Sequence record: MW250786
Reading direction: 5' to 3' (one strand)
Length of the DNA stretch: 64,000 nt
From: Escherichia phage UPEC06
The translations under genes were made by a program, and so were the position numbers. Under the pieces are notes generated by a model. That model worked only from the letters and a program-made list of their open reading frames with translations, searched no databases and was not told where the DNA came from. Within the stretch, counting starts at the first letter, position 1. The number at the start of each line of letters is the position of its first letter. This document shows, in pieces, positions 2 through 29,207 of this stretch.

Positions 2-1747
2 GGCGATAAAGGCGACAAGGGTGATATCGGAACGGGTATCGTAGCTCGTGGCGTTGTTGCAACCCAAAGTGCACTTCCTTCCGGCGCAGCACCTGGTGAT
101 TTCTACGTTGTAGAAGATGAAGGTAACGGTTACGCTTGGGACGGTACAGCTTGGGTTTTAACTGGATTAGCTCGTGGACCTCAAGGTCTTAAAGGCGATA
201 CCGGAGAAACCGGAGCCAAAGGTGATAAGGGCGATAAAGGTGATGCAGGCGATGCACTTAAGCTGAGAGGCTTGGTTGCAACTTCCGCTGAACTGCCTTC
301 CACTGCTGAACTTGGTGACTTCTATGTCGCTGAAGACACCGGAATTGGTTACGCTTGGGATGGTGTTGCTTTCGTTTCTGCCGGAACCGTTAGAGGACCG
401 CAAGGTGAAGTAGGGCCGCAGGGTGAAGTTGGTCCTCAAGGACCTCAAGGCGAGAAGGGAGATGCTGGCGAGCAAGGTCCTCAAGGATTGGTCGGTGAAA
501 CAGGTGCAAAAGGTGATAAAGGAGATAAGGGTGACGTTGGCTCTGGTCTGATTCCGAGAGGAACTTTACCATCTCAAGCAGATCTTCCTCAAACTGGTGA
601 AGTTGGTGACTTCTACGTAGCTAACGATACTGGTATTGGCTATGCTTTTGATGGAACTGCATTCGTAGAAGCTGGAGTTGCCCGTGGTCCACAGGGTGAA
701 CAAGGACCCCAGGGTGAACAGGGACCACAAGGACTTAAAGGTGATACTGGTGAAACAGGTGCTCAGGGACCTCAAGGTGTTCAAGGTGAGAAAGGTGATA
801 CCGGAGAACGTGGAGAGGTAGGTCCGCAAGGTGATCAGGGTCCGCAAGGTGAGCAAGGTCCTCAGGGTGATATCGGACCAGGTGTAGAGATCATTGGACG
901 ATTTGATACCTCTGATGAATTACCTTCCACGGGTACTTTGGGTCAAGGTTACCTTATCCAAGGCGACTTCTGGGGTTGGACTGGTGCAGCATACGAGAAC
1001 TTGGGTCGTATTCAAGGTCCGGTTGGACCAGTAGGTCCTACGGGTGACCAAGGACCACAAGGCCCTGTCGGTAACAAAGGCGATAAAGGCGACCAAGGGA
1101 CCCTTTGGGTAGTTTTTGCTCGTGCACCAATGGTGAGCGATGGTCGTGTTAACGATCTGTACCTCAACTCTTCCACTCTGGAATATTACCGTAAAACTTC
1201 CGCAACGAACTGGGCACTGCTCGGATTCTTAGGTGGTGGTAACGTGTATGACGCACCAGGGGACGGAAAGCTGTATGTCCGTACTGATGGTGGTTGGGTT
1301 GAATTACCTACCGCAGAAGTTCTGGAAGCACCTCGTGATGGTAACCAATACGTCCGTAAAGACGGCGCTTGGACAACTGTTACAGTTCCTGTAACGGAAG
1401 CACCACTTGAAGGTGGATTCTACGTCCGTGAAAATGGTGCGTGGGTTAAACTGGATCAGTACGATTTACGTGTTGTTGCTTCAACTGGTGCAATTGATGC
1501 AAGCTCTGGTAATGCTTGGACTTTAGATGGTACAACCAACAAGTCCTTGACTATCACCGGATTGCCAGCAGGAAGGGCTAAAACCATAGTTTTACGATTC
1601 ACTGGTAACGGTGGTCAGATTAACTGGGATAGCCAGATCGCTTGGTCTAACGGAACAGCACCGACCCTCGGAGCTACCCGCACTATCCTGACCCTGTTCT
1701 GGGATGGTGAATTCCTGACTGGTACTCAGGCAATGACTGTAGGTTAA
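2..1747 (+). CDS. collagen-like repeat fibre protein, 5' partial (reading frame open from window edge)
   Basis: Frame of the 272..1747 ORF stays open back to nt 2; G-X-Y triplet runs ([10 protein letters not shown]) alternate with 4 copies of a ~25-aa motif GDFYVxxDxGxGYAWDG; stop at 1745-1747. Confidence 0.75.
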
Positions 1748-2459: not shown

Positions 2460-4058
2460 ATGAGTAAAAGTATTAGAGGAATGGCAGGTCATAATAACGG
2501 TGTTTTTTACGGAAATGCCCTTTATGACTTAGAAAGAAAGGTTAAAATGGATTTTAAAGATATCATGGAAAAAGGTGATTCCAGCCAAACACCTGGTCCA
2601 GAAGGTCCACAAGGACCAAAAGGGGATACTGGCCCTGCCGGACCTGTAGGTCCTGTAGGTCCGCAAGGACCACAGGGTGAGATCGGGCCTCAGGGTCCTA
2701 CTGGCCCTCAAGGACCTGTCGGAGCTACTGGTCCTACCGGACCTGAGGGTAGTGAAGGACCACAAGGCCCTCAAGGAGAGCAAGGTATAGCTGGTCCAGT
2801 AGGACCAAAAGGGGATACTGGTGAACAAGGTCCTCAGGGAGAGCAAGGACCCGCTGGTCTAAAAGGCGATACTGGGGATATTGGCCCTGCTGGACAAGAA
2901 GGGCCAATAGGTCCGACTGGCCCAACTGGCCCTGCCGGACCAAAGGGGGATGTTGGTCCTCAAGGACCTAAAGGCGAAACTGGTGAGCAGGGACCTATTG
3001 GACCACAAGGCCCACAAGGGGATGTTGGTCCTGTAGGTCCAGCAGGGCTTACTTTCCGAGGTTTTTATGATCCTTTAGTTGAATACTCTCAGAACGATAC
3101 TGTATCTTACAACGGATCTACTTATTTTTCCTTAAGAACAAGTATAGGCGCTAGTCCAGACACATCACTTGAAGATTGGTCTTTATTGGCAGCAGAGGGA
3201 GCAAGAGGCCCACAAGGCCCAACTGGCCCTCAGGGACCTAAAGGCGACCAGGGTGAGATTGGTCCTGCCGGAGCTACCGGTCCTGAAGGTCCGACTGGCC
3301 CAACTGGCCCGACTGGACCCGCTGGACCGAAAGGGGATAAAGGAGATAAAGGAGAGGTTGGACCTCAAGGACCTAAAGGCGACCAAGGGGTTATGGGAGA
3401 ACAAGGACCGCAGGGTATCGCTGGAACTACTGGACCTGCTGGTCCACAAGGACCTAAAGGCGACAAAGGAGATGTTGGCCCTCAAGGTCCCGCTGGTCCA
3501 CAAGGTTTGGATGGTATCCAAGGCCCAGCGGGTCCCCAGGGGATTAGAGGAATACAAGGACCTAAAGGCGACACTGGTGAGCAGGGAGAGAAAGGGGATA
3601 AGGGTGACAAGGGTGAGAAAGGTGATGCAGGAATATCAAGAACATTCCTTAAGGTTAAAACATCATCTGTTGGCACCAATCACGCGATCAAAATGCCAGC
3701 ACCTCTTGATAACCTATCTATAGGCATAAGGCTTGATTCAGCGGTACGTTTTAGTATTAGGGGTTGGATTGATACAGATACGACAGCCAGAAATGTTAGG
3801 GGGGATATTGAAGGCTTCAATAACTCTGAAAATTACTTCAATACAACGGTAAGACAATTGATATCTTCATCAACTGCAACTGGCACAACCCTTGTAGCCG
3901 ATATCAGCGAATTCCAAAGAATTAGGCCATATACATTTAGCTTCTTTGAAACAACAACAGAGACAATGTGGAGAGTAACTATAACTCTCTTCACGTCAGG
4001 GTATGTAGTAACTGACAATCAATGGCTATGTATAGAAGCTGTTAGACTTGATGCGTAA
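2460..4058 (+). CDS. collagen-like triple-helix repeat protein with C-terminal globular domain
   Basis: Two long G-X-Y runs ([14 protein letters not shown]...) separated by a non-collagen segment; AAGGAG upstream. Confidence 0.75.
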
Positions 4059-9236: not shown

Positions 9237-11660
9237 ATGGCTGTTGAAGTAATTGCAACAACAAAGAACCGAGTCATATTTGAAACTGACAAAGGTTCCT
9301 ATCGAAAAGCTCGTGAGGAGATCCGAAAACTCTCCAACGAATGGAAAAAGGCTTCAACAGAGGCTACCGCTGCCGGAAAGAATTCTCCTGCTGAGGCTTA
9401 TAAACAATCCGCTCGTGAAATGAGACTAGTCAGTAAACGTCTGGAAGAAACTCGGAAGCGTGAGGAGAAGAAGGCCACTGATTATCGTATTGCTCTGGCA
9501 AAGAAAGAAGCCAAGGCAAAAGAGGCAATTCAGAAGGTTTCTGCTGCAAGAATACGACAACAGGTTAAAAGCCTGACGGCTGCATCCCCTGGTTCTGCTG
9601 AGATGAGAAAGTTCTATCAGGAACAGGAGAAAGCTGCCCGTGCTGCTGCAAGATCTGCAAACCGTACAGCGACACCTTTACCGCCTTTCAACATCCAACG
9701 TGTGGAAGCTGCAAATCAATTATTATCTCGCGGTAACAGAGAGCCAGGGTCAGGTATTGTTGGAGATCCTAATAGCCGATTCAACCCTGATTTAATTGCT
9801 GCACAAAACAGAGCGATGCAACGTAGTTCTCGTATCAAAGAGAGAATGGAGAAGCAACAAACTCAAGAACAGGAACGTGAACGTGTCCGCGCTGCTCGTG
9901 CTGCTGCCCGTATTGATGATGTTACAGCACAACAGCGTATTCGTCTATCTTCTCGTTATGGTCGTGGTTATGCAGGTGCTTTGGGTCGTGACTCGGAAGG
10001 TCGTGGGATTGAAGATCTTAATAGACAATTCCGTGCAGGAACGTTATCATCTGGTCAGTATCGTCAAAGCATACAGGCGCTAGAAAGACAATTCCGTGCT
10101 GCACAGTCAAGTGCTGGATCTTTCTCTTCCACACTTAAAGATGTTCGTTCCAGCCTGGTAAGTGCTACTGCCGCATACGGAGTTTTCTCAGCAGGTGCAT
10201 CAATAACTCGTCAAGGTCAATTCTTTGAAGGAATCAACGCAACTTCTCTATTGATCTCTGATTCGGCAGAAGAAGCTGGTCAGCGTGTTAAGTTTGTTCG
10301 TGACGAAGCATACCGTTTAGGTTTGGATCTGAAAACTGCATCGCAGGGATTTACCCAGTTAGCGATCTCTGCTGATGGTGTTATTAGTAAATCTCAAACA
10401 GACGAATTATTTAGTGCATTTTCTGAATATTCCACCGCACTTCAGGTCGATCCCGTAAGATATCAGCGTGGCATTACAGCAATTCAACAGATCCTTGGTA
10501 AAGGTCAAGTAATGGCTGAAGAACTTAAAGGCCAGTTGGCTGAAGCAATTCCAGGTTCCTTGCAGGTATTCTTGAAAGCAACTCAGGAAGCTTTTGGTGA
10601 CACCTCTATCGACATTGCAAAATTGCTCAAGCTGATGGAAGACGGTGAATTGAAAGCCTCCAAGATCATACCTTTGGTTGGTAAATACTATGCAGAGGCT
10701 GCTAATAAAGGTGGTGCACTGGATAAAGCTTTGGAAAGTAACCGTGTTGCTTATCAGCGTTTAACCCAGACTTTTGCAGAGTTCCAAAACAAAATATTCC
10801 AAGGTGGCTTTGGAGAACAACTTACAAGAGTGTTCAATAACTTAGCTACGATCCTGTCAAGTAATGGTAATGTTGCCAGCACCATTGGTAGATTCTTCGG
10901 TAACGTAATTGAAGGGTTTACAGACATGGTTCTTGAAATTCACGATAACTTGGTCCTTCTCGACCGTGTTGTGACTTACTATTTCAAGAAGATTGGTGTT
11001 GAAGGTGAAACTCTTCGACAGGTGTTCGACTGGGGTTCTTATCTCCTCGGGATTGGATTATTCCTTGGTGGATTGACTAAAGTGTTCAACATCCTTGCTA
11101 AGATTGCAGGACTTAAAGGTGCACTTAAGGAAATTCGTGGTACACTCGGTGGTGATTTGGCTACAGGTGGAAAAACGAGCACAGGTGCAAGCACAACTGC
11201 TTCTGGCGGGGCAGGTACACCAGGTCAAACCAGCGTAGCGGGTAGATTCAGTCAGCTTGGTAAGCTTGGCAAACTCTTCGGCCTTGGTACTCTTTACTCA
11301 GCAGGGTCAGAGATCAATGACCGCTTTATTCAAAGTGGAGAGAGCCGATTGGCTGGAGCAGGGCTTGACGCAACAGCTTTCCAGCAGCAATATGGTGTAA
11401 CTCCACAACCTGTCGGGTTAACGGATGTGTTCATGGAGTTGTTTGGTGGCTCTCGTGACATAACTGTAGATCCTAACACTATCTCGACTCCATCTGGTAT
11501 TCGCCCTAGCGGATTTCCTCTGGAAACTCCAGCAGCACCACCTGAAGGTAAGATCACCGTTGAGATCAAGAGTGGAGAGATTCGTCAATATATCCGTGCA
11601 ATTGTGGATGAAGAGAACGGATTCAATATCAACCTGCTCACTCAGGGTGGTAACCAATAA
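9237..11660 (+). CDS. tail tape measure protein
   Basis: 807 aa, Ala/Gln/Arg-rich coiled-coil-like N-half, Gly-rich C-terminal region; follows chaperone pair. Confidence 0.7.
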   Translation: MAVEVIATTKNRVIFETDKGSYRKAREEIRKLSNEWKKASTEATAAGKNSPAEAYKQSAREMRLVSKRLEETRKREEKKATDYRIALAKKEAKAKEAIQKVSAARIRQQVKSLTAASPGSAEMRKFYQEQEKAARAAARSANRTATPLPPFNIQRVEAANQLLSRGNREPGSGIVGDPNSRFNPDLIAAQNRAMQRSSRIKERMEKQQTQEQERERVRAARAAARIDDVTAQQRIRLSSRYGRGYAGALGRDSEGRGIEDLNRQFRAGTLSSGQYRQSIQALERQFRAAQSSAGSFSSTLKDVRSSLVSATAAYGVFSAGASITRQGQFFEGINATSLLISDSAEEAGQRVKFVRDEAYRLGLDLKTASQGFTQLAISADGVISKSQTDELFSAFSEYSTALQVDPVRYQRGITAIQQILGKGQVMAEELKGQLAEAIPGSLQVFLKATQEAFGDTSIDIAKLLKLMEDGELKASKIIPLVGKYYAEAANKGGALDKALESNRVAYQRLTQTFAEFQNKIFQGGFGEQLTRVFNNLATILSSNGNVASTIGRFFGNVIEGFTDMVLEIHDNLVLLDRVVTYYFKKIGVEGETLRQVFDWGSYLLGIGLFLGGLTKVFNILAKIAGLKGALKEIRGTLGGDLATGGKTSTGASTTASGGAGTPGQTSVAGRFSQLGKLGKLFGLGTLYSAGSEINDRFIQSGESRLAGAGLDATAFQQQYGVTPQPVGLTDVFMELFGGSRDITVDPNTISTPSGIRPSGFPLETPAAPPEGKITVEIKSGEIRQYIRAIVDEENGFNINLLTQGGNQ

Positions 11661-25173: not shown

Positions 25174-25206
25174 AAAAGGCGCTCAAATGAGCGCCTTTAT
25201 TTTTAT
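25174..25206. terminator. bidirectional terminator between convergent modules
   Basis: GGCGCTC-AAAT-GAGCGCC flanked by A-tract and T-tract, between + gene ending 25171 and - gene ending 25220. Confidence 0.6.
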
Positions 25207-25219
25207 CTAAATTTTACGA

Positions 25220-26395
25220 TCAAAACGGAATATCGTCGTCAAAATCCATATCATCTACAGACATATTCACATGGCCTTCGATATCAGGTGTAGGTGAATC
25301 TTCTGCTGACGGAGTTAACTGCGGTTCCGGCTCAGATTTCTTTTCTTCTTGCTTAGGGGTTGAAGCCCCGTTACGGATCTTATCTTCCAACTGACAGATA
25401 AATCGGAAATTCTCTTCTGTTTTAGCAATAAACGTTTCAATGTTATTACTTCCCCAACGGGCAGAAAGAATACCACACTGGCCTAAACGAGCACCAAAAG
25501 AATAATCATCCATAGATTTAAACTCTTCGCGAAGTTTTGCTTTAATGGAGTCCATCGCTGCAAGAACTTGCTCTACAACAATACCCTGATTTACGATCGT
25601 TTCATTCGGGAACATCGCATCTGTGATAGACAGTGCATTACCTAAACGAATAGGCAGATCGTCTTTACCTTTACCTGAACGTGATCCTGTTCCAGTACTT
25701 GCACCTTTTGGACCGTAAGCTTTAAAGCCTGTAACCGTACCATCATCTGAACGAACACCTGCAATACGACCACCTTCTGTAATCTGACCCGTCTGTTCAT
25801 CAGTGAGGTTTACAGTAACTTCTGTGCCGTCTTCCAGCTTAACAACTACCTTATTGCCTTCGATAGATGTGATATCACCATAAATCTTCTTAGCTGCACC
25901 ACCAGACGGCTTTTGCTGCTGTTGGGAACCATTTGATTGCTGCTGTTGCTGACGAGGCTCACGAGCACCGGATGCGTCAGTAATCTTGATACGTGCTTTC
26001 TTACCTTCCGTAGAAGAACCCTGACTACCATCTTGTTTGGTGTAGGTCTTGATAACAACAGGTAAGCGAATTTTCATACCTTCTTTAAGATCAGTGTAAC
26101 CACCTTCAGGATTTTTAATCTGGAACTGATTCTCATACTTCAGGTTTTTAACTTCACCTTCACCAAAAGAAATCCAAGCCTGGTCTTCACCTTCTTTCAG
26201 AAGAACTGCATAGCGGTGGGTATTGTTAATGCTTTTTTGCTGACCTGTATTCTTATCTTTAAAGGTGGTAACGCGTGGACTACCATCTTCATTAATACGT
26301 TTAATGAGGATACGTTCAATCGTACCTGCTGCAATGTTTACTGTGGTATCGGAAACAGCATCGTATACAGCATTGATAACTTTAACTTCAGACAT
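25220..26395 (-). CDS. SSB-like protein with E. coli SSB-type C-terminal tip
   Basis: C-terminus MDFDDDIPF matches the E. coli SSB tip; Gln/Gly-rich linker QQQQQSNGSQQQQKPSGG. Confidence 0.5.
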   Translation of the reverse strand: MSEVKVINAVYDAVSDTTVNIAAGTIERILIKRINEDGSPRVTTFKDKNTGQQKSINNTHRYAVLLKEGEDQAWISFGEGEVKNLKYENQFQIKNPEGGYTDLKEGMKIRLPVVIKTYTKQDGSQGSSTEGKKARIKITDASGAREPRQQQQQSNGSQQQQKPSGGAAKKIYGDITSIEGNKVVVKLEDGTEVTVNLTDEQTGQITEGGRIAGVRSDDGTVTGFKAYGPKGASTGTGSRSGKGKDDLPIRLGNALSITDAMFPNETIVNQGIVVEQVLAAMDSIKAKLREEFKSMDDYSFGARLGQCGILSARWGSNNIETFIAKTEENFRFICQLEDKIRNGASTPKQEEKKSEPEPQLTPSAEDSPTPDIEGHVNMSVDDMDFDDDIPF

Positions 26396-26478: not shown

Positions 26479-26859
26479 TTAGAGATAAACTCGCTTAACT
26501 TTTTCATGAACATTATCAAACAAAGTGTTGATCATCTGCAAGTCTTTAATAAGTTCTTCCGTAAATTGTTCTTCTTTGTGAGCAAACACACGAGAACGGT
26601 CAATGTTTACGGGATCTGCACTTTGGTCACCAGACAGGTCGAAAATGTCGATACCAATACGAGCACGACCTTTTTCAATCTTATTCTCATCATCAATACC
26701 ATAAACACTCATGATTTGCATTTCACGATCTTCTTCTTTGTTTGTATAGATGATCGTGGTATTCAGATTCTTAATGCCATCATAAATGTGGATATTACGT
26801 GTAGCTGAGATAGGAATCCAATCACCAACCAGATAATCTTTACCGTCGAAAATACTCAT
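26479..26859 (-). CDS. hypothetical protein
   Basis: ORF with GAGGAA upstream in - strand operon. Confidence 0.4.
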   Translation of the reverse strand: MSIFDGKDYLVGDWIPISATRNIHIYDGIKNLNTTIIYTNKEEDREMQIMSVYGIDDENKIEKGRARIGIDIFDLSGDQSADPVNIDRSRVFAHKEEQFTEELIKDLQMINTLFDNVHEKVKRVYL

Positions 26860-26913
26860 CTTCTTTCCTCTGTTGTTTAAGTGGGGCCATTATGCCCCAA
26901 GTAGTACTTTCTG

Positions 26914-27501
26914 TCAAGGACGTTTTGGTGGACTAACGACACCTTTTTTAGATAAAGGTAATTCGTCTGCATCTTTTCCACGAAGAGATTCTAGCCACTC
27001 ATCTAAAGACAGGGGTACTTTACCATCACCTTTGGACCACACAGACAAGCAATACAGATCGTATGCAGATGGACCTCGATCACCTTTGTCACCATTCGGC
27101 CCTTTTAAGCTCTCCAACCAATCCTTTTCGTTCAGTGGGATAGCACCTGGATCTTCTTGATGAAGAACTCTTAGGTATGTTTCATAAGCAGACTCTCCAC
27201 GAGGACCCATTTGACCCTTCTCACCTTGTGGCCCTTTTGCATAATCTGCGTACTTAGATTCCAGATATGCAGACTTCACACCTTCAGGGGCAACGGAAAC
27301 CTTATACAATGACCAAGCTAACAGAGCTATCCAACAAGCAAACAGTGCAAGCGGATAAGGGATCATTGAAGTAAAGAATGACAGAGCTAAAATTACAACC
27401 TTGTTCTTGTGATTACGACGGAAAGCGATGATCACAGGGGCTAACCAGATAGCAAAGATAACCCACGCAGATAAGATAAACAACCAACTAATGTATTCCA
27501 T
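26914..27501 (-). CDS. membrane protein with two collagen-like/SAY repeats
   Basis: N-terminal hydrophobic segments; duplicated unit KGPxGxKGxxGPxxxSAY...PLxxxxWLESLxG. Confidence 0.45.
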   Translation of the reverse strand: MEYISWLFILSAWVIFAIWLAPVIIAFRRNHKNKVVILALSFFTSMIPYPLALFACWIALLAWSLYKVSVAPEGVKSAYLESKYADYAKGPQGEKGQMGPRGESAYETYLRVLHQEDPGAIPLNEKDWLESLKGPNGDKGDRGPSAYDLYCLSVWSKGDGKVPLSLDEWLESLRGKDADELPLSKKGVVSPPKRP

Positions 27502-27689
27502 TAAGCCTCCTCGGTATCGTCTTTAAAGTAATCTAACATCCAACTTTCTACAGGGGTTGCATAGTAACCCGTTCGACCTTTCTTTTGAAACTCCATGATA
27601 ATTTCATTTGCAATACCTTTTGTGATTGCGATCCCGATCAGTGCACCACCAGGTCCCATTACTGCATGTGAACTAAGATCATTACTCAT
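27501..27689 (-). CDS. hypothetical small protein
   Basis: ORF in operon. Confidence 0.35.
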   Translation of the reverse strand: MSNDLSSHAVMGPGGALIGIAITKGIANEIIMEFQKKGRTGYYATPVESWMLDYFKDDTEEA

Positions 27690-27981
27690 TTTTAACCCCC
27701 TTCATTTTATCTCTTAAACTTTGAGCATCCCACGTATAACCTGAGGAGATACCTTTTTCACGTTCACTATCTTTGAACTTGCAAATTACAGATTTTGCTT
27801 CACCATCAACAACAACCGCATAACTGTTGTAATAATTGTGTTGCTTCTTGCAAAATTCGTGTAACTCCTTAACCTCTATTGGCATCAGAGAAGGTAGATT
27901 TTTGTATCGCTTTGTCTGATCATCTTCACCATCTCCGCAACCAACAAGAAGAAGTATACATAAAATGATTAACCTTTTCAA
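27682..27981 (-). CDS. predicted lipoprotein
   Basis: Signal peptide with lipobox LLVGC. Confidence 0.45.
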   Translation of the reverse strand: MKRLIILCILLLVGCGDGEDDQTKRYKNLPSLMPIEVKELHEFCKKQHNYYNSYAVVVDGEAKSVICKFKDSEREKGISSGYTWDAQSLRDKMKGVKNE

Positions 27982-28129
27982 TAGCTACCCCCAAAATATT
28001 TTGTAATCTCTACTGCAAATATTGTCCCAAGTATAAACCATGTGGCACTTAGTACGTTGAAGGGTAAAAACCTTGATCCTGTAAGAGAAACCATAATGAA
28101 AAACGTTACAAAAATCTCTGGAGAAATCA

Positions 28130-28531
28130 TCATTGTTTGATAGTCCCCTTGGCGATCATCTCGTCAAGTTCATCTTCCGCACGACACATAATCTGATAGA
28201 TAGTCTCTGGATTGTTTAAGAATTCTGTGTACTTTTTGATACGACAAACTAAACGTGCACGAACTTTACGCTCACGGGCCACATGATTAAAGTAATGTCC
28301 CTTTTGTCTGTAGATCCAAGCATAATATACAGTTTTTGCTCTATTGCGATCACAACCTAAACGTTCAGCCAACAGAGTGTAAGGGTCATTATTAGTGGGA
28401 CCAAACAAAAATATTTCTGCAAAACTTTCCTTCATGATACGAGATTCTTCATCCGTGATTCGCGGACATTCTTCAGAACCGTAGCGTGGGGTTTTAGTGG
28501 CATTTGGCTTCTTAGGGTATACTTTACGCAT
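28130..28531 (-). CDS. hypothetical protein
   Basis: ORF with GAGGAG RBS. Confidence 0.45.
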   Translation of the reverse strand: MRKVYPKKPNATKTPRYGSEECPRITDEESRIMKESFAEIFLFGPTNNDPYTLLAERLGCDRNRAKTVYYAWIYRQKGHYFNHVARERKVRARLVCRIKKYTEFLNNPETIYQIMCRAEDELDEMIAKGTIKQ

Positions 28532-28598
28532 TTCATCACTCCTCTAATTAAAACTCTTACTCCCGATGTGAGGAGCCTTTCGGCCCCTCTCTTAAATA

Positions 28599-29207
28599 TC
28601 AATCACAACTACTTGAAGAACTACTGCTGCTACTGTCAGAAGAATAACTATCATATGATGATGAGCTATCATACGAACTTGATCGACTTGAAGAACAGTA
28701 AGAACTTGAACTACTTGTACGATCTTCACTGGAGGACATTACAGCAGCATACGTTGCCACACCACCTAAAGCTGCCACCTGAGGATCAACCTGGCTAGTT
28801 CCATATCCATTTGGAGAGTCGCTCATCTTACGTGGTGCTGCCCGACGTGCCTGATCAATATACTGTCGCTTTGCCTTCGGCGGTAATTTCTTACCTTGAG
28901 CATAGGACGGTAATTCAACGCCCTTCAGTTGTTCATTCAAAGGTTTCGGCGGTGTAGCCTGTGATTTTGGTCGTTCAACAGAGATATCAACAACCTTCAT
29001 CGTCTTATCCTTGATGTTTACCCCAACCAGTACTTCATTTTCTTTTAATGGCTTTTCAAGATCGCGTGTTTCAACTGGACCAAATTTAACGCTTGCAGTT
29101 TCCTGACGTTGTTCGGCCTGCTTTGCAATATATTTGTCGATCGCCGCAGTTTCTACTTCCAGCGGAATAAACAGTGATTTTACCCAAGCAACAAACTTCT
29201 TGATCAT
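28599..29207 (-). CDS. hypothetical protein with poly-Ser C-terminal tail
   Basis: C-terminal ~45 residues are almost entirely Ser with interspersed Tyr/Asp. Confidence 0.45.
   Translation of the reverse strand: MIKKFVAWVKSLFIPLEVETAAIDKYIAKQAEQRQETASVKFGPVETRDLEKPLKENEVLVGVNIKDKTMKVVDISVERPKSQATPPKPLNEQLKGVELPSYAQGKKLPPKAKRQYIDQARRAAPRKMSDSPNGYGTSQVDPQVAALGGVATYAAVMSSSEDRTSSSSSYCSSSRSSSYDSSSSYDSYSSDSSSSSSSSSCD

What the first reader, a model, noticed from the sequence alone, without database searches (positions are those of the whole stretch)
26914..27501. Membrane protein with duplicated collagen-like repeats in the early region
Hydrophobic N-terminal segments are followed by two copies of a unit containing a short G-X-Y stretch (KGPQGEKGQMGPRGESAY..., KGPNGDKGDRGPSAYDLY...) and ...PLxxxxWLESLxG. 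Collagen-like triplets in a small early membrane protein are unexpected; it may be a superinfection-exclusion or envelope-interacting factor related to the fibre repeats.
Basis: seen in the sequence. Interest (0 to 1): 0.45.

Follow-up and report, generated by a model that had tools for sequence, protein, structure and literature searches.

The report
Imm-type membrane protein with collagen stalk
This phage gene encodes a small inner-membrane protein related to the phage T4 protein that blocks entry of a second phage's DNA. Unusually, it carries a short collagen-like stalk built partly from tail-fibre-type modules, so it is a new and testable variant of a known anti-superinfection device.

Summary
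Window 26914..27501 (minus strand) is a real 195-aa gene under purifying selection, from Escherichia phage UPEC06 (Vequintavirinae, Septuagintavirus), annotated "hypothetical protein".

Residues 1-66 form a two-helix membrane hairpin. Sequence profiles and predicted fold match the T4 Imm / PF14373 superinfection-immunity family. Charge distribution predicts the N-terminus outside, a cytoplasmic RRNHKNK loop and a periplasmic C-terminal part.

That part holds G-X-Y runs of 5 and 4 triplets and two 31-aa units (SAYExY...WLESL[KR]G). The units are expanded versions of a 24-aa module that alternates with collagen in tail fibres of unrelated phages. It ends in a conserved tail, KDADE-LPLSKKG-basic.

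About 45 relatives sit at the same genome position in Septuagintavirus, Certrevirus and allied phages. All share the hairpin; nearly all also have the PLSKxG tail and an uninterrupted G-X-Y run of 3-13 triplets. Only some have one or two units, so the units are lineage-specific inserts.

The orthologue is absent from the W70 virion proteome, and these phages have a separate spanin pair.

Best reading (about 0.5): an Imm-like block to genome entry, with a trimeric periplasmic stalk presenting a conserved terminal peptide. Function is inferred, not shown. It is a new variant of a known kind.

The parts
26914..27501 (-). Complete CDS (195 aa plus stop): Imm-like membrane hairpin, collagen-like stalk with two tail-fibre-type units, and conserved C-terminal peptide. 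Identical to QUL77301.1 of Escherichia phage UPEC06.
   Evidence: purifying selection
27506..27512 (-). Shine-Dalgarno GAGGAGG, 4 nt upstream of the ATG. The ATG shares one base with the TAA stop of the upstream 62-aa gene.
   Evidence: read from the sequence; ORF coordinates
27304..27501 (-). aa 1-66: Imm / PF14373-like two-segment membrane hairpin. Hydrophobic segments aa 4-27 and 35-65, basic loop RRNHKNK aa 28-34. Family-invariant P22 and N33; near-invariant A26, H31 and W57.
   Evidence: Hydropathy. AF2 pLDDT above 90 with four helices. Pfam and PHROG. hhalign to T4 Imm. Foldseek to phage Imm proteins. Charge bias.
27235..27303 (-). aa 67-89: juxtamembrane linker (KVSVAPEG) plus helix KSAYLESKYADYAK, which may be a collapsed third unit. 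This is the variable region between strains, with a 5-aa indel in A73, W70 and A5-4.
27190..27234 (-). aa 90-104: first G-X-Y run, 5 triplets (GPQGEKGQMGPRGES).
27100..27192 (-). aa 104-134: unit 1, SAYETYLRVLHQEDPGAIPLNEKDWLESLKG. Predicted helix-loop-helix; an expanded tail-fibre-type module.
27067..27102 (-). aa 134-145: second G-X-Y run, 4 triplets (GPNGDKGDRGPS).
26977..27069 (-). aa 145-175: unit 2, SAYDLYCLSVWSKGDGKVPLSLDEWLESLRG.
26917..26976 (-). aa 176-195: conserved C-terminal peptide KDADELPLSKKGVVSPPKRP. Family motif (D/E)x(I/V/L)P(L/I)SKxG followed by a basic end. S184 is invariant; P182, L183 and G187 are near-invariant.
27682..27981 (-). Context: 99-aa predicted lipoprotein (LLVGC lipobox, two conserved Cys). 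It is conserved just upstream of the Imm-collagen gene in most related phages, and belongs to one block of five start/stop-overlapping genes (28531 down to 26914).

Best explanation
The gene encodes a non-virion, inner-membrane protein of the T4 Imm (Pfam PF14373, 'superinfection immunity') type. It is made by the infecting phage to stop closely related phages from delivering their DNA into the already infected cell.

Proposed mechanism:
- The N-terminal hairpin (aa 1-66) sits in the cytoplasmic membrane with the N-terminus outside and the basic loop inside.
- By analogy with T4 Imm, it would engage the membrane-inserting part of the incoming tape measure protein and so block formation of the DNA conduit.
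- Unlike T4 Imm, the protein continues into the periplasm as a short stalk: G-X-Y collagen-like runs interrupted by two helix-loop-helix units of tail-fibre type.
- The stalk most likely assembles as a trimer and presents a conserved terminal peptide (PLSKxG plus basic residues) about 8-14 nm (a rough estimate) above the membrane.
- That peptide would act as an interaction head, either for the incoming tail tip or tape measure protein, or for an envelope component.

Status of each step:
- Shown: anatomy, family membership at profile and fold level, conservation, synteny, absence from virions.
- Inferred: topology, trimerisation, timing of expression, the exclusion phenotype and the target.
For: N-terminal domain is Imm-like:
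- PF14373 is the top Pfam hit for the protein (E 6.5e-4) and for all five diverse family members (best E 2.9e-6).
- phrog_1039 'immunity to superinfection' scores E 2e-5.
- The family profile aligns to T4 Imm over both hydrophobic segments: hhalign probability 80%, E 1.4e-5, 54 columns, matching T4 P26, A30, R33 and W55.
- The AF2 hairpin (pLDDT above 90) superposes on predicted Imm proteins of Serratia phage PS2 (TM-score 0.81, rmsd 1.6 A, probability 1.0) and Aeromonas phage pIS4-A.
- The weaker hits that I read in the exhaustive profile search (P0021-P0028) are plain Imm-type small proteins.
- UniRef names the CR8 and PBES 02 homologues 'Superinfection immunity protein'. The SSBI34 homologue carries precomputed PF14373 plus PF01391.

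Known mechanism of the family:
- T4 Imm binds the tape measure protein and blocks genome translocation, with its N-terminus periplasmic. R33A and W50A impair it (preprint 10.64898/2026.03.06.709160).
- This phage's putative tape measure protein (9237..11660) has a hydrophobic segment at aa ~600-626.

Topology: over 21 family members the N-terminus holds 0 K/R and 17 D/E. The loop holds 81 K/R and 7 D/E. The 15 residues after the second segment hold 42 K/R and 32 D/E.

Stalk:
- In 34 of 35 unit-less relatives, the stretch from the juxtamembrane motif to the tail (in P0009 and P0019 short of it, by 19 and 4 non-collagen residues) is an uninterrupted G-X-Y run of 3-13 triplets. Length varies in whole triplets.
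- The units match the tail-fibre module: hhalign probability 93%, E 2.6e-7.

Not a virion or lysis part:
- Orthologue W70_103 is not among the 28 virion proteins found by mass spectrometry.
- A separate Rz/Rz1 spanin pair exists in these phages (PMC7344957; PMC12942863).

Context: conserved position in the DNA-polymerase-side block, next to a lipoprotein and a 51-aa membrane protein.
Against: - No experiment or transcript data bear on function or timing.
- The window protein itself scores below Pfam's gathering threshold for PF14373 (20-21.6 bits against 27.9). The Foldseek E-values for the Imm matches are not significant on their own (0.22 and 0.86). hhalign probability to T4 Imm is only 80%.
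- PF14373 proteins are widespread in bacteria, and few have a demonstrated exclusion phenotype.
- PADLOC and NCBIfam give nothing.
- The G-X-Y runs (4-5 triplets here, as few as 3 in relatives, none in P0007) are too short to form a stable triple helix unaided. The monomer AF2 model of the ectodomain has low confidence, so trimerisation is unproven.
- Stalk length varies from 0 to 13 triplets, which argues against a precise ruler.
- The role of the C-terminal peptide is unknown.
- T4 Imm's topology was called 'unusual' by its discoverers, and I could not read that paper.
Confidence: 0.5

Rival explanations
1. Envelope-bridging complex with the co-encoded lipoprotein. The inner-membrane stalk protein and the lipoprotein (27682..27981) would bind each other across the periplasm, like a spanin or a Tol-Pal/Lpp-type tether. 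The complex would either help disrupt the outer membrane at lysis or stiffen the envelope against lysis from without.
For: - A homologous lipoprotein gene lies directly upstream, often with overlapping stop and start, in Septuagintavirus, Certrevirus, SSBI34 and metagenomic contig L015.
- The predicted periplasmic stalk ends in a conserved peptide that could be a docking site.
Against: - These phages already have a conserved Rz/Rz1 pair next to the terminase (PMC7344957; PMC12942863).
- Gene order is lipoprotein first, there are two membrane segments with N-out topology, and there is no coiled coil. None of this fits i-spanins.
- The lipoprotein is missing upstream in L014 and L018.
- An AF2 model of mature lipoprotein joined by a G30 linker to the C-terminal tail, with 8 paired sequences, left the tail below pLDDT 50. 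That gives no sign of docking, though the test is weak.
- The lipoprotein has no recognisable fold match.
Confidence: 0.15
2. Lysis-timing protein (holin or antiholin). A small two-segment membrane protein whose periplasmic domain senses or regulates hole formation, in the manner of T4 T and RI.
For: - It is small, has two hydrophobic segments and a charged C-terminus.
- A review notes that T4 Imm itself 'resembles a holin' (PMC6832632).
- The holin of this phage group has not been firmly identified (PMC7344957).
Against: - Predicted topology is N-out/C-out with a strongly basic cytoplasmic loop. That is the opposite of class II holins.
- The gene is not next to an endolysin. It lies in the replication-side block.
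- Certreviruses have a better holin candidate beside the SleB-like enzyme.
- Sequence and fold point to Imm, not to a holin family.
Confidence: 0.08
3. Membrane-anchored assembly factor for the phage's own collagen-like fibres. Its G-X-Y runs and tail-fibre-type units would transiently pair with fibre proteins to nucleate or register their trimerisation.
For: - The same window encodes two proteins in the late block with very long G-X-Y runs (272..1747 and 2460..4058).
- The units are homologous to modules of tail fibres in other phages.
Against: - The predicted ectodomain is periplasmic, whereas fibres assemble in the cytoplasm.
- This phage's own collagen-like proteins lack the SAYE...WLxSLxG unit.
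- The gene is in the early/middle-type block, not with the late genes.
- Most family members have no unit at all.
Confidence: 0.05
4. A generic small membrane protein whose C-terminal part is a low-complexity, slippage-prone linker with no specific role. The collagen-like and tail-fibre-like sequences would be incidental captures.
For: - The G-X-Y tract varies freely in length, from 0 to 13 triplets.
- The middle of the gene is mosaic between strains: pS 0.46 against 0.09-0.15 in the flanks.
- AF2 confidence is low outside the membrane domain.
Against: - The Gly register is never broken despite the length changes.
- The terminal PLSKxG peptide is conserved across members that are 30-40% identical and survives even where the collagen is lost, as in P0007.
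- pN/pS is 0.12 in the distal unit and tail and 0.28 in the variable middle.
- Both units keep the hallmark residues of the tail-fibre module.
Confidence: 0.12

Closest known systems
Phage T4 Imm (immunity to superinfection; Pfam PF14373 Imm_superinfect)
   Same: - A small phage-encoded cytoplasmic-membrane protein with a two-segment hydrophobic hairpin.
- A shared motif pattern: P-x-x-I-A-x-x-R/K basic loop, and a W in the second segment.
- Profile-profile and fold-level similarity.
- The gene lies among replication-type genes near the DNA polymerase in both phages.
- The N-terminus is periplasmic in T4 Imm and predicted so here.
   Different: - T4 Imm is 83 aa and ends about 18 residues after the hairpin. 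This protein adds a 130-aa ectodomain of collagen-like runs, two tail-fibre-type units and a conserved terminal peptide.
- Sequence identity is about 24% over 54 columns, and the protein is below Pfam's threshold.
- The exclusion phenotype and tape-measure binding are shown for T4 Imm and untested here.
The 24-aa SAYE(V/I)AVxxGFxGTExEWLxSLxG module that alternates with G-X-Y runs in phage tail fibres. Examples: Ralstonia phage RSF1 tail fibre, Streptomyces phage Kradal tailspike, Shawty minor tail protein, Listeria phage LPJP1. No Pfam model, solved structure or literature name was found.
   Same: - It starts with SAY(E/D) and ends with WLxSL(K/R)G.
- It is directly flanked by G-X-Y triplets and occurs in tandem.
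- Profile-profile match: probability 93%, E 2.6e-7.
- PHROG tail-fibre families hit this region.
   Different: - The units here are 31 aa, with a 7-residue expansion in the middle and different core residues (Y instead of A at position 6; no GFxG).
- They sit in a non-virion membrane protein, not a fibre.
Prophage collagen-like tail-fibre proteins of E. coli (EPclA-D) and other bacterial collagens (Scl1/2, BclA)
   Same: - G-X-Y tracts rich in P, K, D and E without hydroxyproline.
- Tract length varies in whole triplets.
- Tracts are interrupted or flanked by non-collagen trimerising modules (PMC3368898).
   Different: - EPcl collagen domains are 27-322 residues and were shown to be trimeric with a collagen CD spectrum. 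Here the runs are 12-15 residues and nothing has been measured.
- EPcl proteins are virion fibres with PfN and PfC domains; this protein has none of them.
Eukaryotic membrane-anchored collagens and collagenous receptors (collagens XIII/XVII, MARCO, SR-A). This is an analogy only, from my own knowledge.
   Same: A membrane anchor, an interrupted collagenous stalk, and a C-terminal ligand-binding end displayed as a trimer.
   Different: There is no homology. Those proteins have a single type II transmembrane segment and large globular heads. This one has an Imm-type hairpin and a 20-residue terminal peptide.
Two-component spanins (Rz/Rz1)
   Same: An inner-membrane protein with a periplasmic rod, encoded beside a small lipoprotein.
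   Different: - Two membrane segments, with the N-terminus predicted outside.
- Collagen-like rather than coiled-coil.
- The lipoprotein gene comes first.
- The gene lies in the early/middle-type block.
- The phage group has its own Rz/Rz1 pair elsewhere.

Membership tests
T4 Imm / Pfam PF14373 (Imm_superinfect) | Score at or above Pfam's gathering threshold (27.9 bits) | tested here: not met
   The full protein scores 20.0 bits and the N-terminal 74 aa score 21.6 bits. PF14373 is nevertheless the top family for all 5 diverse homologues (best E 2.9e-6). The SSBI34, P0168 and P0172 homologues carry a precomputed PF14373 hit.
T4 Imm / Pfam PF14373 (Imm_superinfect) | Homology to T4 Imm across the whole hydrophobic hairpin, including the P...IA..R basic-loop motif and the second-segment W | tested here: met
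   hhalign of the family profile against T4 Imm gives probability 80%, E 1.4e-5, over 54 columns (T4 residues 13-66). T4 P26, A30, R33 and W55 align with P22, A26, R29 and W57. Alignment of T4 R33, needed for function, to a basic residue rests on that alignment.
T4 Imm / Pfam PF14373 (Imm_superinfect) | Compact helical membrane hairpin fold | tested here: met
   AF2 gives pLDDT above 90 for aa 1-66, with helices 2-19, 21-28, 34-44 and 50-65. Foldseek against BFVD finds Serratia phage PS2 'Immunity to superinfection membrane protein' (TM-score 0.81 on the target, rmsd 1.6 A, probability 1.0) and the Aeromonas phage pIS4-A Imm. The E-values alone (0.22, 0.86) are weak.
T4 Imm / Pfam PF14373 (Imm_superinfect) | Cytoplasmic-membrane location with the N-terminus in the periplasm | not testable with these tools
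   This is prediction only. The positive-inside bias is strong: loop 81 K/R against 7 D/E, and the N-terminus has 0 K/R over 21 members. It is stated for T4 Imm in the 2026 preprint.
T4 Imm / Pfam PF14373 (Imm_superinfect) | Excludes superinfecting phage by blocking genome translocation (binds the tape measure protein) | not testable with these tools
   This needs plating, DNA-entry and pull-down experiments. The only indirect point is that the putative tape measure protein has a hydrophobic segment.
Collagen triple-helix repeat proteins (PF01391) | Uninterrupted G-X-Y repeats long enough to reach the family threshold | tested here: not met
   The runs are 5 and 4 triplets and score 16.4 bits against 27.2. 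Relatives with 8-13 triplets do carry PF01391.
Collagen triple-helix repeat proteins (PF01391) | Gly register kept while length changes in whole triplets (a sign of triple-helix constraint) | tested here: met
   In 34 of 35 unit-less family members there is a perfect G-X-Y tract of 3-13 triplets between the juxtamembrane motif and the tail, directly abutting the tail in 32 of them. Close relatives differ by 1-3 triplets.
Collagen triple-helix repeat proteins (PF01391) | Forms a trimer with collagen-type structure | not testable with these tools
   Only monomer AF2 was available, and the ectodomain pLDDT was 42-76. CD, SEC-MALS or a multimer model is needed.
Tail-fibre SAYE...WLxSLxG spacer module (unnamed) | Begins SAY(E/D/Q), ends W(L/V)xS(L/I)xG, and is flanked by G-X-Y | tested here: met
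   Both units fit the pattern. hhalign of the family units (A3) against 17 canonical units (A4) gives probability 93.4%, E 2.6e-7, over all 24 template columns with a 7-residue insertion.
Tail-fibre SAYE...WLxSLxG spacer module (unnamed) | Resides in a virion fibre or tail protein | tested here: not met
   Orthologue W70_103 is absent from the 28 virion proteins found by mass spectrometry. The protein has a membrane hairpin and no fibre N- or C-terminal domains.
Two-component spanin (i-spanin) | Single N-terminal transmembrane segment (N-in, C-out), coiled-coil periplasmic domain, gene upstream of or embedding the o-spanin gene, and the only spanin of the phage | tested here: not met
   There are two segments with N-out predicted. 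The lipoprotein gene is upstream, separated here by a 62-aa gene. A separate Rz/Rz1 pair is reported for Certrevirus, rV5, PVP-SE1 and Septuagintavirus KEC4.
Class II holin | Two transmembrane segments with N and C termini in the cytoplasm; gene beside the endolysin | tested here: not met
   The charge bias predicts the opposite orientation. The neighbours are small unknown proteins, DUF7325 and a 391-aa protein, with no endolysin.

The most novel reading that the evidence does not exclude
The periplasmic stalk is an active trap rather than a passive extension. A trimeric, collagen-like rod built from modules captured from tail-fibre genes would stand on an Imm-type anchor. It would use its conserved PLSKxG/basic tip to seize or plug the tip of an incoming tail tube or tape measure protein before it reaches the inner membrane. 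Stalk length (0-13 triplets, 0-2 units) would be tuned between phage lineages in an arms race among close relatives. This would be the first collagen-based superinfection-exclusion device and the first membrane-anchored collagen described in a virus of bacteria.
Probability: 0.15. Interest if true: 0.75.

Novelty: new variant of a known kind. Interest (0 to 1): 0.45.

Why it matters
T4 Imm has been known since the 1980s, but only a 2026 preprint reported how it works, by binding the tape measure protein.

This family keeps the Imm-type anchor and adds a periplasmic collagen-like stalk of variable length with a conserved tip. It therefore offers a natural series of 'Imm plus extension' variants: no collagen, collagen only, one unit, two units. 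Such a series could reveal where in the periplasm the incoming genome-delivery machinery is intercepted.

It also shows a tail-fibre building block being reused in a non-virion protein. In practice, exclusion genes like this matter when closely related Vequintavirinae phages are combined in therapeutic cocktails.

If the protein proves not to exclude phages, it is still an uncharacterised conserved envelope protein of a phage group used in biocontrol.

Tried and rejected
- **PDB by sequence:** only a chance ribosomal-protein hit at E 1.1 for the ectodomain.
- **PDB by fold:** nothing for the whole model.
- **Pfam on three tail-fibre proteins that carry the canonical unit:** no model covers the unit.
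- **Literature search for the unit:** searching by sequence strings and by 'SAYE' found no description.
- **PADLOC and NCBIfam:** nothing significant. A 0.096 E-value hit of the lipoprotein to the EexN entry-exclusion lipoprotein covers mostly the signal peptide, so I discounted it.
- **Docking of the C-terminal peptide on the co-encoded lipoprotein:** tested with an AF2 fusion (mature lipoprotein, G30 linker, last 28 aa; 8 paired sequences). The tail stayed below pLDDT 50, so there is no support, but the test is weak.
- **Lipoprotein fold search against PDB:** no match below E 0.1.
- **Spanin reading:** rejected on topology, gene order and the presence of a separate Rz/Rz1 pair.
- **Virion-component reading:** rejected on the W70 proteome.
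- **Link to the phage's own collagen-like proteins:** only generic G-X-Y similarity. Neither the unit nor the tail motif occurs in any other real ORF of the window.
- **Lu et al. 1993 paper on Imm topology:** not held in the library.
- **Word-indexed protein search with the full protein:** found only two near-identical clusters. The family was recovered only with the exhaustive profile search and tblastn.
Full report
**What is there**

The finding sits on a genuine gene. Window 26914..27501 on the minus strand is a 195-codon ORF with an ATG start. A GAGGAGG ribosome-binding site lies 4 nt upstream, and the start overlaps the stop of the preceding gene by one base (sequence).

- Hydropathy shows two hydrophobic segments, aa 4-27 and aa 35-65, separated by RRNHKNK.
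- G-X-Y runs of five and four triplets lie at aa 90-104 and 134-145.
- Each run is followed by a unit that starts SAY(E/D)xY and ends WLESL(K/R)G.
- The duplication is highly significant at the protein level: z = 14 for the two halves, and z = 11.9 for the non-collagen parts alone, with 12 of 30 residues identical.
- It is no longer visible in the DNA (36 of 90 bases), so it is old.

**Source and reality of the gene**

The exact protein is QUL77301.1 of Escherichia phage UPEC06, annotated 'hypothetical protein'. The region is 93-95% identical to phages LTH01, A73, W70, A5-4 and A7_1. These are Vequintavirinae of the genus Septuagintavirus.

Against LTH01 the gene shows purifying selection. pN/pS is 0.22 overall, 0.07 in the membrane domain and 0.12 in the distal unit and tail. 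The middle (aa 67-134) is much more diverged even at synonymous sites (pS 0.46), which suggests mosaic exchange.

**The N-terminal third is an Imm-type hairpin**

- Pfam's best hit is PF14373, 'Superinfection immunity protein' (E 6.5e-4, 20 bits, below the 27.9-bit threshold).
- PHROGs gives phrog_15593 (unknown function, E 7.5e-19) and phrog_1039 'immunity to superinfection' (E 2e-5).
- All five diverse homologues have PF14373 as their top Pfam family (best E 2.9e-6).
- A profile of the family aligns with T4 Imm itself over both hydrophobic segments. hhalign gives probability 80%, E 1.4e-5, over 54 columns. T4 P26, A30, R33 and W55 fall on family-conserved P22, A26, R29 and W57.
- AlphaFold2 with the family alignment models aa 1-66 at pLDDT above 90 as four short helices.
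- Foldseek against predicted viral structures returns Imm proteins of Serratia phage PS2 (TM-score 0.81, rmsd 1.6 A, probability 1.0) and Aeromonas phage pIS4-A as the only meaningful matches besides the protein itself.
- In an exhaustive profile search of 1.84 billion representatives, the family proper comes first. The weaker hits whose sequences I read (P0021-P0028) are ordinary small Imm-type proteins.
- UniRef already labels two homologues 'Superinfection immunity protein'. The SSBI34 homologue carries precomputed PF14373 plus PF01391.

**Topology**

Over 21 family members, the short N-terminus has no K/R and 17 D/E. The inter-segment loop has 81 K/R against 7 D/E. The 15 residues after the second segment are nearly neutral (42 against 32).

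By the positive-inside rule this predicts the N-terminus outside, the loop in the cytoplasm and the C-terminal 130 residues in the periplasm. A 2026 preprint states that the N-terminus of T4 Imm faces the periplasm. This is a prediction, not a measurement.

**The family and what varies in it**

tblastn, the two profile searches and a cluster look-up recover about 45 sequences. They come from Septuagintavirus, from Certrevirus (Cronobacter CR3/CR8/CR9/PBES 02, Pectobacterium, Enterobacter, Pantoea and Klebsiella phages), from Salmonella phage SSBI34 and from metagenomic relatives. Wherever context is available they sit at the same genome position: downstream of a ~133-aa protein, and upstream of a DUF7325 protein and a ~400-aa protein at the end of the leftward block.

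All share the same plan:
- the hairpin;
- a juxtamembrane motif (SLYKSPExVxVQ);
- a G-X-Y tract;
- a conserved tail, (K/R)DA(D/E)E(I/L)PLSKxGV followed by basic residues.

S184 is invariant, and P182, L183 and G187 are nearly so. In 34 of 35 members without units, the tract running from the juxtamembrane motif to the tail (in two members, P0009 and P0019, stopping short of it) is a perfect G-X-Y run of 3 to 13 triplets. Close relatives differ by whole triplets. One member (P0007, 89 aa) has no collagen but keeps VPLSKKG. A few have lost everything beyond the hairpin.

Members with one SAYE-type unit exist (P0005, P0008, P0011, P0015). P0011 comes from a contig perfectly syntenic with this window. 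So the collagen-like tract and the terminal peptide are the ancestral features. The units are lineage-specific inserts, and the two-unit state is peculiar to Septuagintavirus.

**What the repeated unit is**

tblastn and PHROG hits to the C-terminal half go to tail-fibre, tailspike and minor-tail proteins of unrelated phages. Reading those proteins shows a very regular 24-residue module, SAYE(V/I)AVxxGFxGTExEWLxSLxG. It occurs up to nine times per protein and alternates with G-X-Y runs.

A profile of the units of this family aligns end to end with a profile of 17 canonical modules (hhalign probability 93%, E 2.6e-7). The difference is a 7-residue expansion in the middle. AlphaFold2 models each unit as helix-loop-helix, with moderate confidence for unit 1 and low for unit 2.

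I found no Pfam model, no solved structure and no description in the searchable literature for this module.

The phage's own collagen-like proteins in the late block of the window (272..1747 and 2460..4058) have G-X-Y runs up to 153 residues. They lack both the module and the tail motif. The link to 'the fibre repeats' is therefore to fibres of other phages, not to this phage's own.

**What it is not**

- **Not the spanin.** Certreviruses, rV5, PVP-SE1 and the Septuagintavirus KEC4 have a separate Rz/Rz1 pair. Topology and gene order do not fit either.
- **Not a class II holin.** The predicted orientation and the neighbourhood argue against it.

**Context**

The gene is the last of five genes (28531 down to 26914) whose starts and stops overlap by 4, 4, 8 and 1 nt. 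Two of the others are envelope proteins: a 51-aa membrane protein and a 99-aa lipoprotein (LLVGC lipobox, two conserved Cys).

A homologous lipoprotein lies directly upstream of the Imm-collagen gene in Certrevirus, SSBI34 and contig L015, but not in L014 or L018. I tested whether the conserved tail might dock on it. An AlphaFold2 fusion with eight paired sequences left the tail below pLDDT 50, so there is no support, though the test is weak. The lipoprotein has no family or fold match.

**How it most likely works**

Shown:
- an Imm-family membrane hairpin;
- a conserved, register-preserving collagen-like tract;
- tail-fibre-type modules and a conserved terminal peptide;
- conserved position in the replication-side block, and absence from virions.

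Established elsewhere: T4 Imm blocks genome translocation and, according to a 2026 preprint, does so by binding the helical-bundle domain of the tape measure protein in the membrane. R33 and W50 are functionally important.

Inferred:
- The protein is made in infected cells and sits in the inner membrane.
- It blocks DNA entry of superinfecting relatives in the Imm manner. The putative tape measure protein of this phage has a hydrophobic segment at aa ~600-626.
- Its periplasmic part trimerises through the G-X-Y runs, clamped by the helical units.
- It presents three copies of the terminal peptide about 8 nm (27 collagen residues at 0.29 nm), plus the two units, above the membrane.

I put about 0.5 on the exclusion function, and much more on the architecture. 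The main rivals are a bridge to the lipoprotein (0.15), a largely unspecific linker (0.12), a lysis regulator (0.08) and a fibre-assembly factor (0.05).

**Novelty and score**

The Imm family, phage collagen-like tracts and the tail-fibre module are each known kinds of thing. Automated databases already register PF14373 plus PF01391 on one homologue. I could not find any description of the combination: an Imm-type anchor carrying a periplasmic collagen-like stalk, with captured tail-fibre modules and a conserved tip, conserved across a phage subfamily lineage with variable stalk length.

I rate it a new variant of a known kind, interest 0.45. It is moderately surprising to a specialist, and readily testable now that the Imm mechanism is emerging.

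Noticed in passing
window 27682..27981 (-): A 99-aa predicted lipoprotein (LLVGC lipobox, two conserved Cys). It is conserved directly upstream of the Imm-collagen gene in Septuagintavirus, Certrevirus, SSBI34 and a metagenomic contig. It has no Pfam, PHROG-function or PDB fold match. The residue after the lipid-modified Cys varies (G, N, D, L), so its membrane sorting is unclear.
   Followed up: partly
window 26914..28531 (-): Five consecutive genes (133, 51, 99, 62 and 195 aa) overlap start to stop by 4, 4, 8 and 1 nt. This suggests a translationally coupled block that includes two further envelope proteins: a 51-aa membrane protein at 27978..28133 and the lipoprotein.
   Followed up: partly
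window 25220..26395 (-): This 391-aa protein (phrog_4477, unknown function) ends in ...DDMDFDDDIPF. From my own knowledge this matches the acidic C-terminal tip of bacterial SSB that recruits host replication and repair proteins. It may be the phage SSB or an SSB-tail mimic.
   Followed up: no
window 26889..26917 (-): A near-consensus sigma-70-type promoter (TTGACA, 17 nt, CATAAT; 11 of 12) lies in the 55-bp gap after the gene. Its -35 hexamer contains the gene's TGA stop, and a GGGGC/GCCCC inverted repeat brackets the -10. It would drive the DUF7325 gene at 26479..26859.
   Followed up: no
window 25175..25198: A perfect 10-bp G+C-rich hairpin with T-runs on both strands. It looks like a bidirectional terminator between the convergent late (+) and early/middle-type (-) gene blocks.
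   Followed up: no
window 272..1747 (+) and 2460..4058 (+): Two late-block (+ strand) proteins with very long collagen-like tracts (G-X-Y runs up to 153 residues; the first ORF probably starts before the window). They do not contain the SAYE...WLxSLxG module.
   Followed up: partly
window 27235..27303 (-), aa 67-89 of the protein: KSAYLESKYADYAKG looks like a collapsed third unit (SAY joined to LES...KG). Phages A73, W70 and A5-4 have a 5-aa deletion here. The surrounding region (aa 67-134) is far more diverged between strains (pS 0.46) than the flanks, suggesting recombination.
   Followed up: partly
window 28599..29207 (-): This 202-aa protein has a C-terminus made almost entirely of Ser with scattered Tyr, Asp and Cys (SSSSSYCSSSRSSSYDSSSSYDSYSSDSSSSSSSSSCD). 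It matches phrog_13005, of unknown function.
   Followed up: no
window 28532..28598 (-): The only intergenic gap upstream of the five-gene block holds a small imperfect hairpin (GAGGGGCC-GAAA-GGCTCCTC) without a T-run and no promoter-like site. The block is therefore probably co-transcribed with the genes upstream.
   Followed up: no
window 9237..11660 (+): The putative tape measure protein (807 aa; orthologue W70_120 was found in virions) has a single hydrophobic segment at aa ~600-626 followed by a Gly/Thr/Ser-rich stretch. That is the kind of membrane-inserting element Imm targets in T4.
   Followed up: partly
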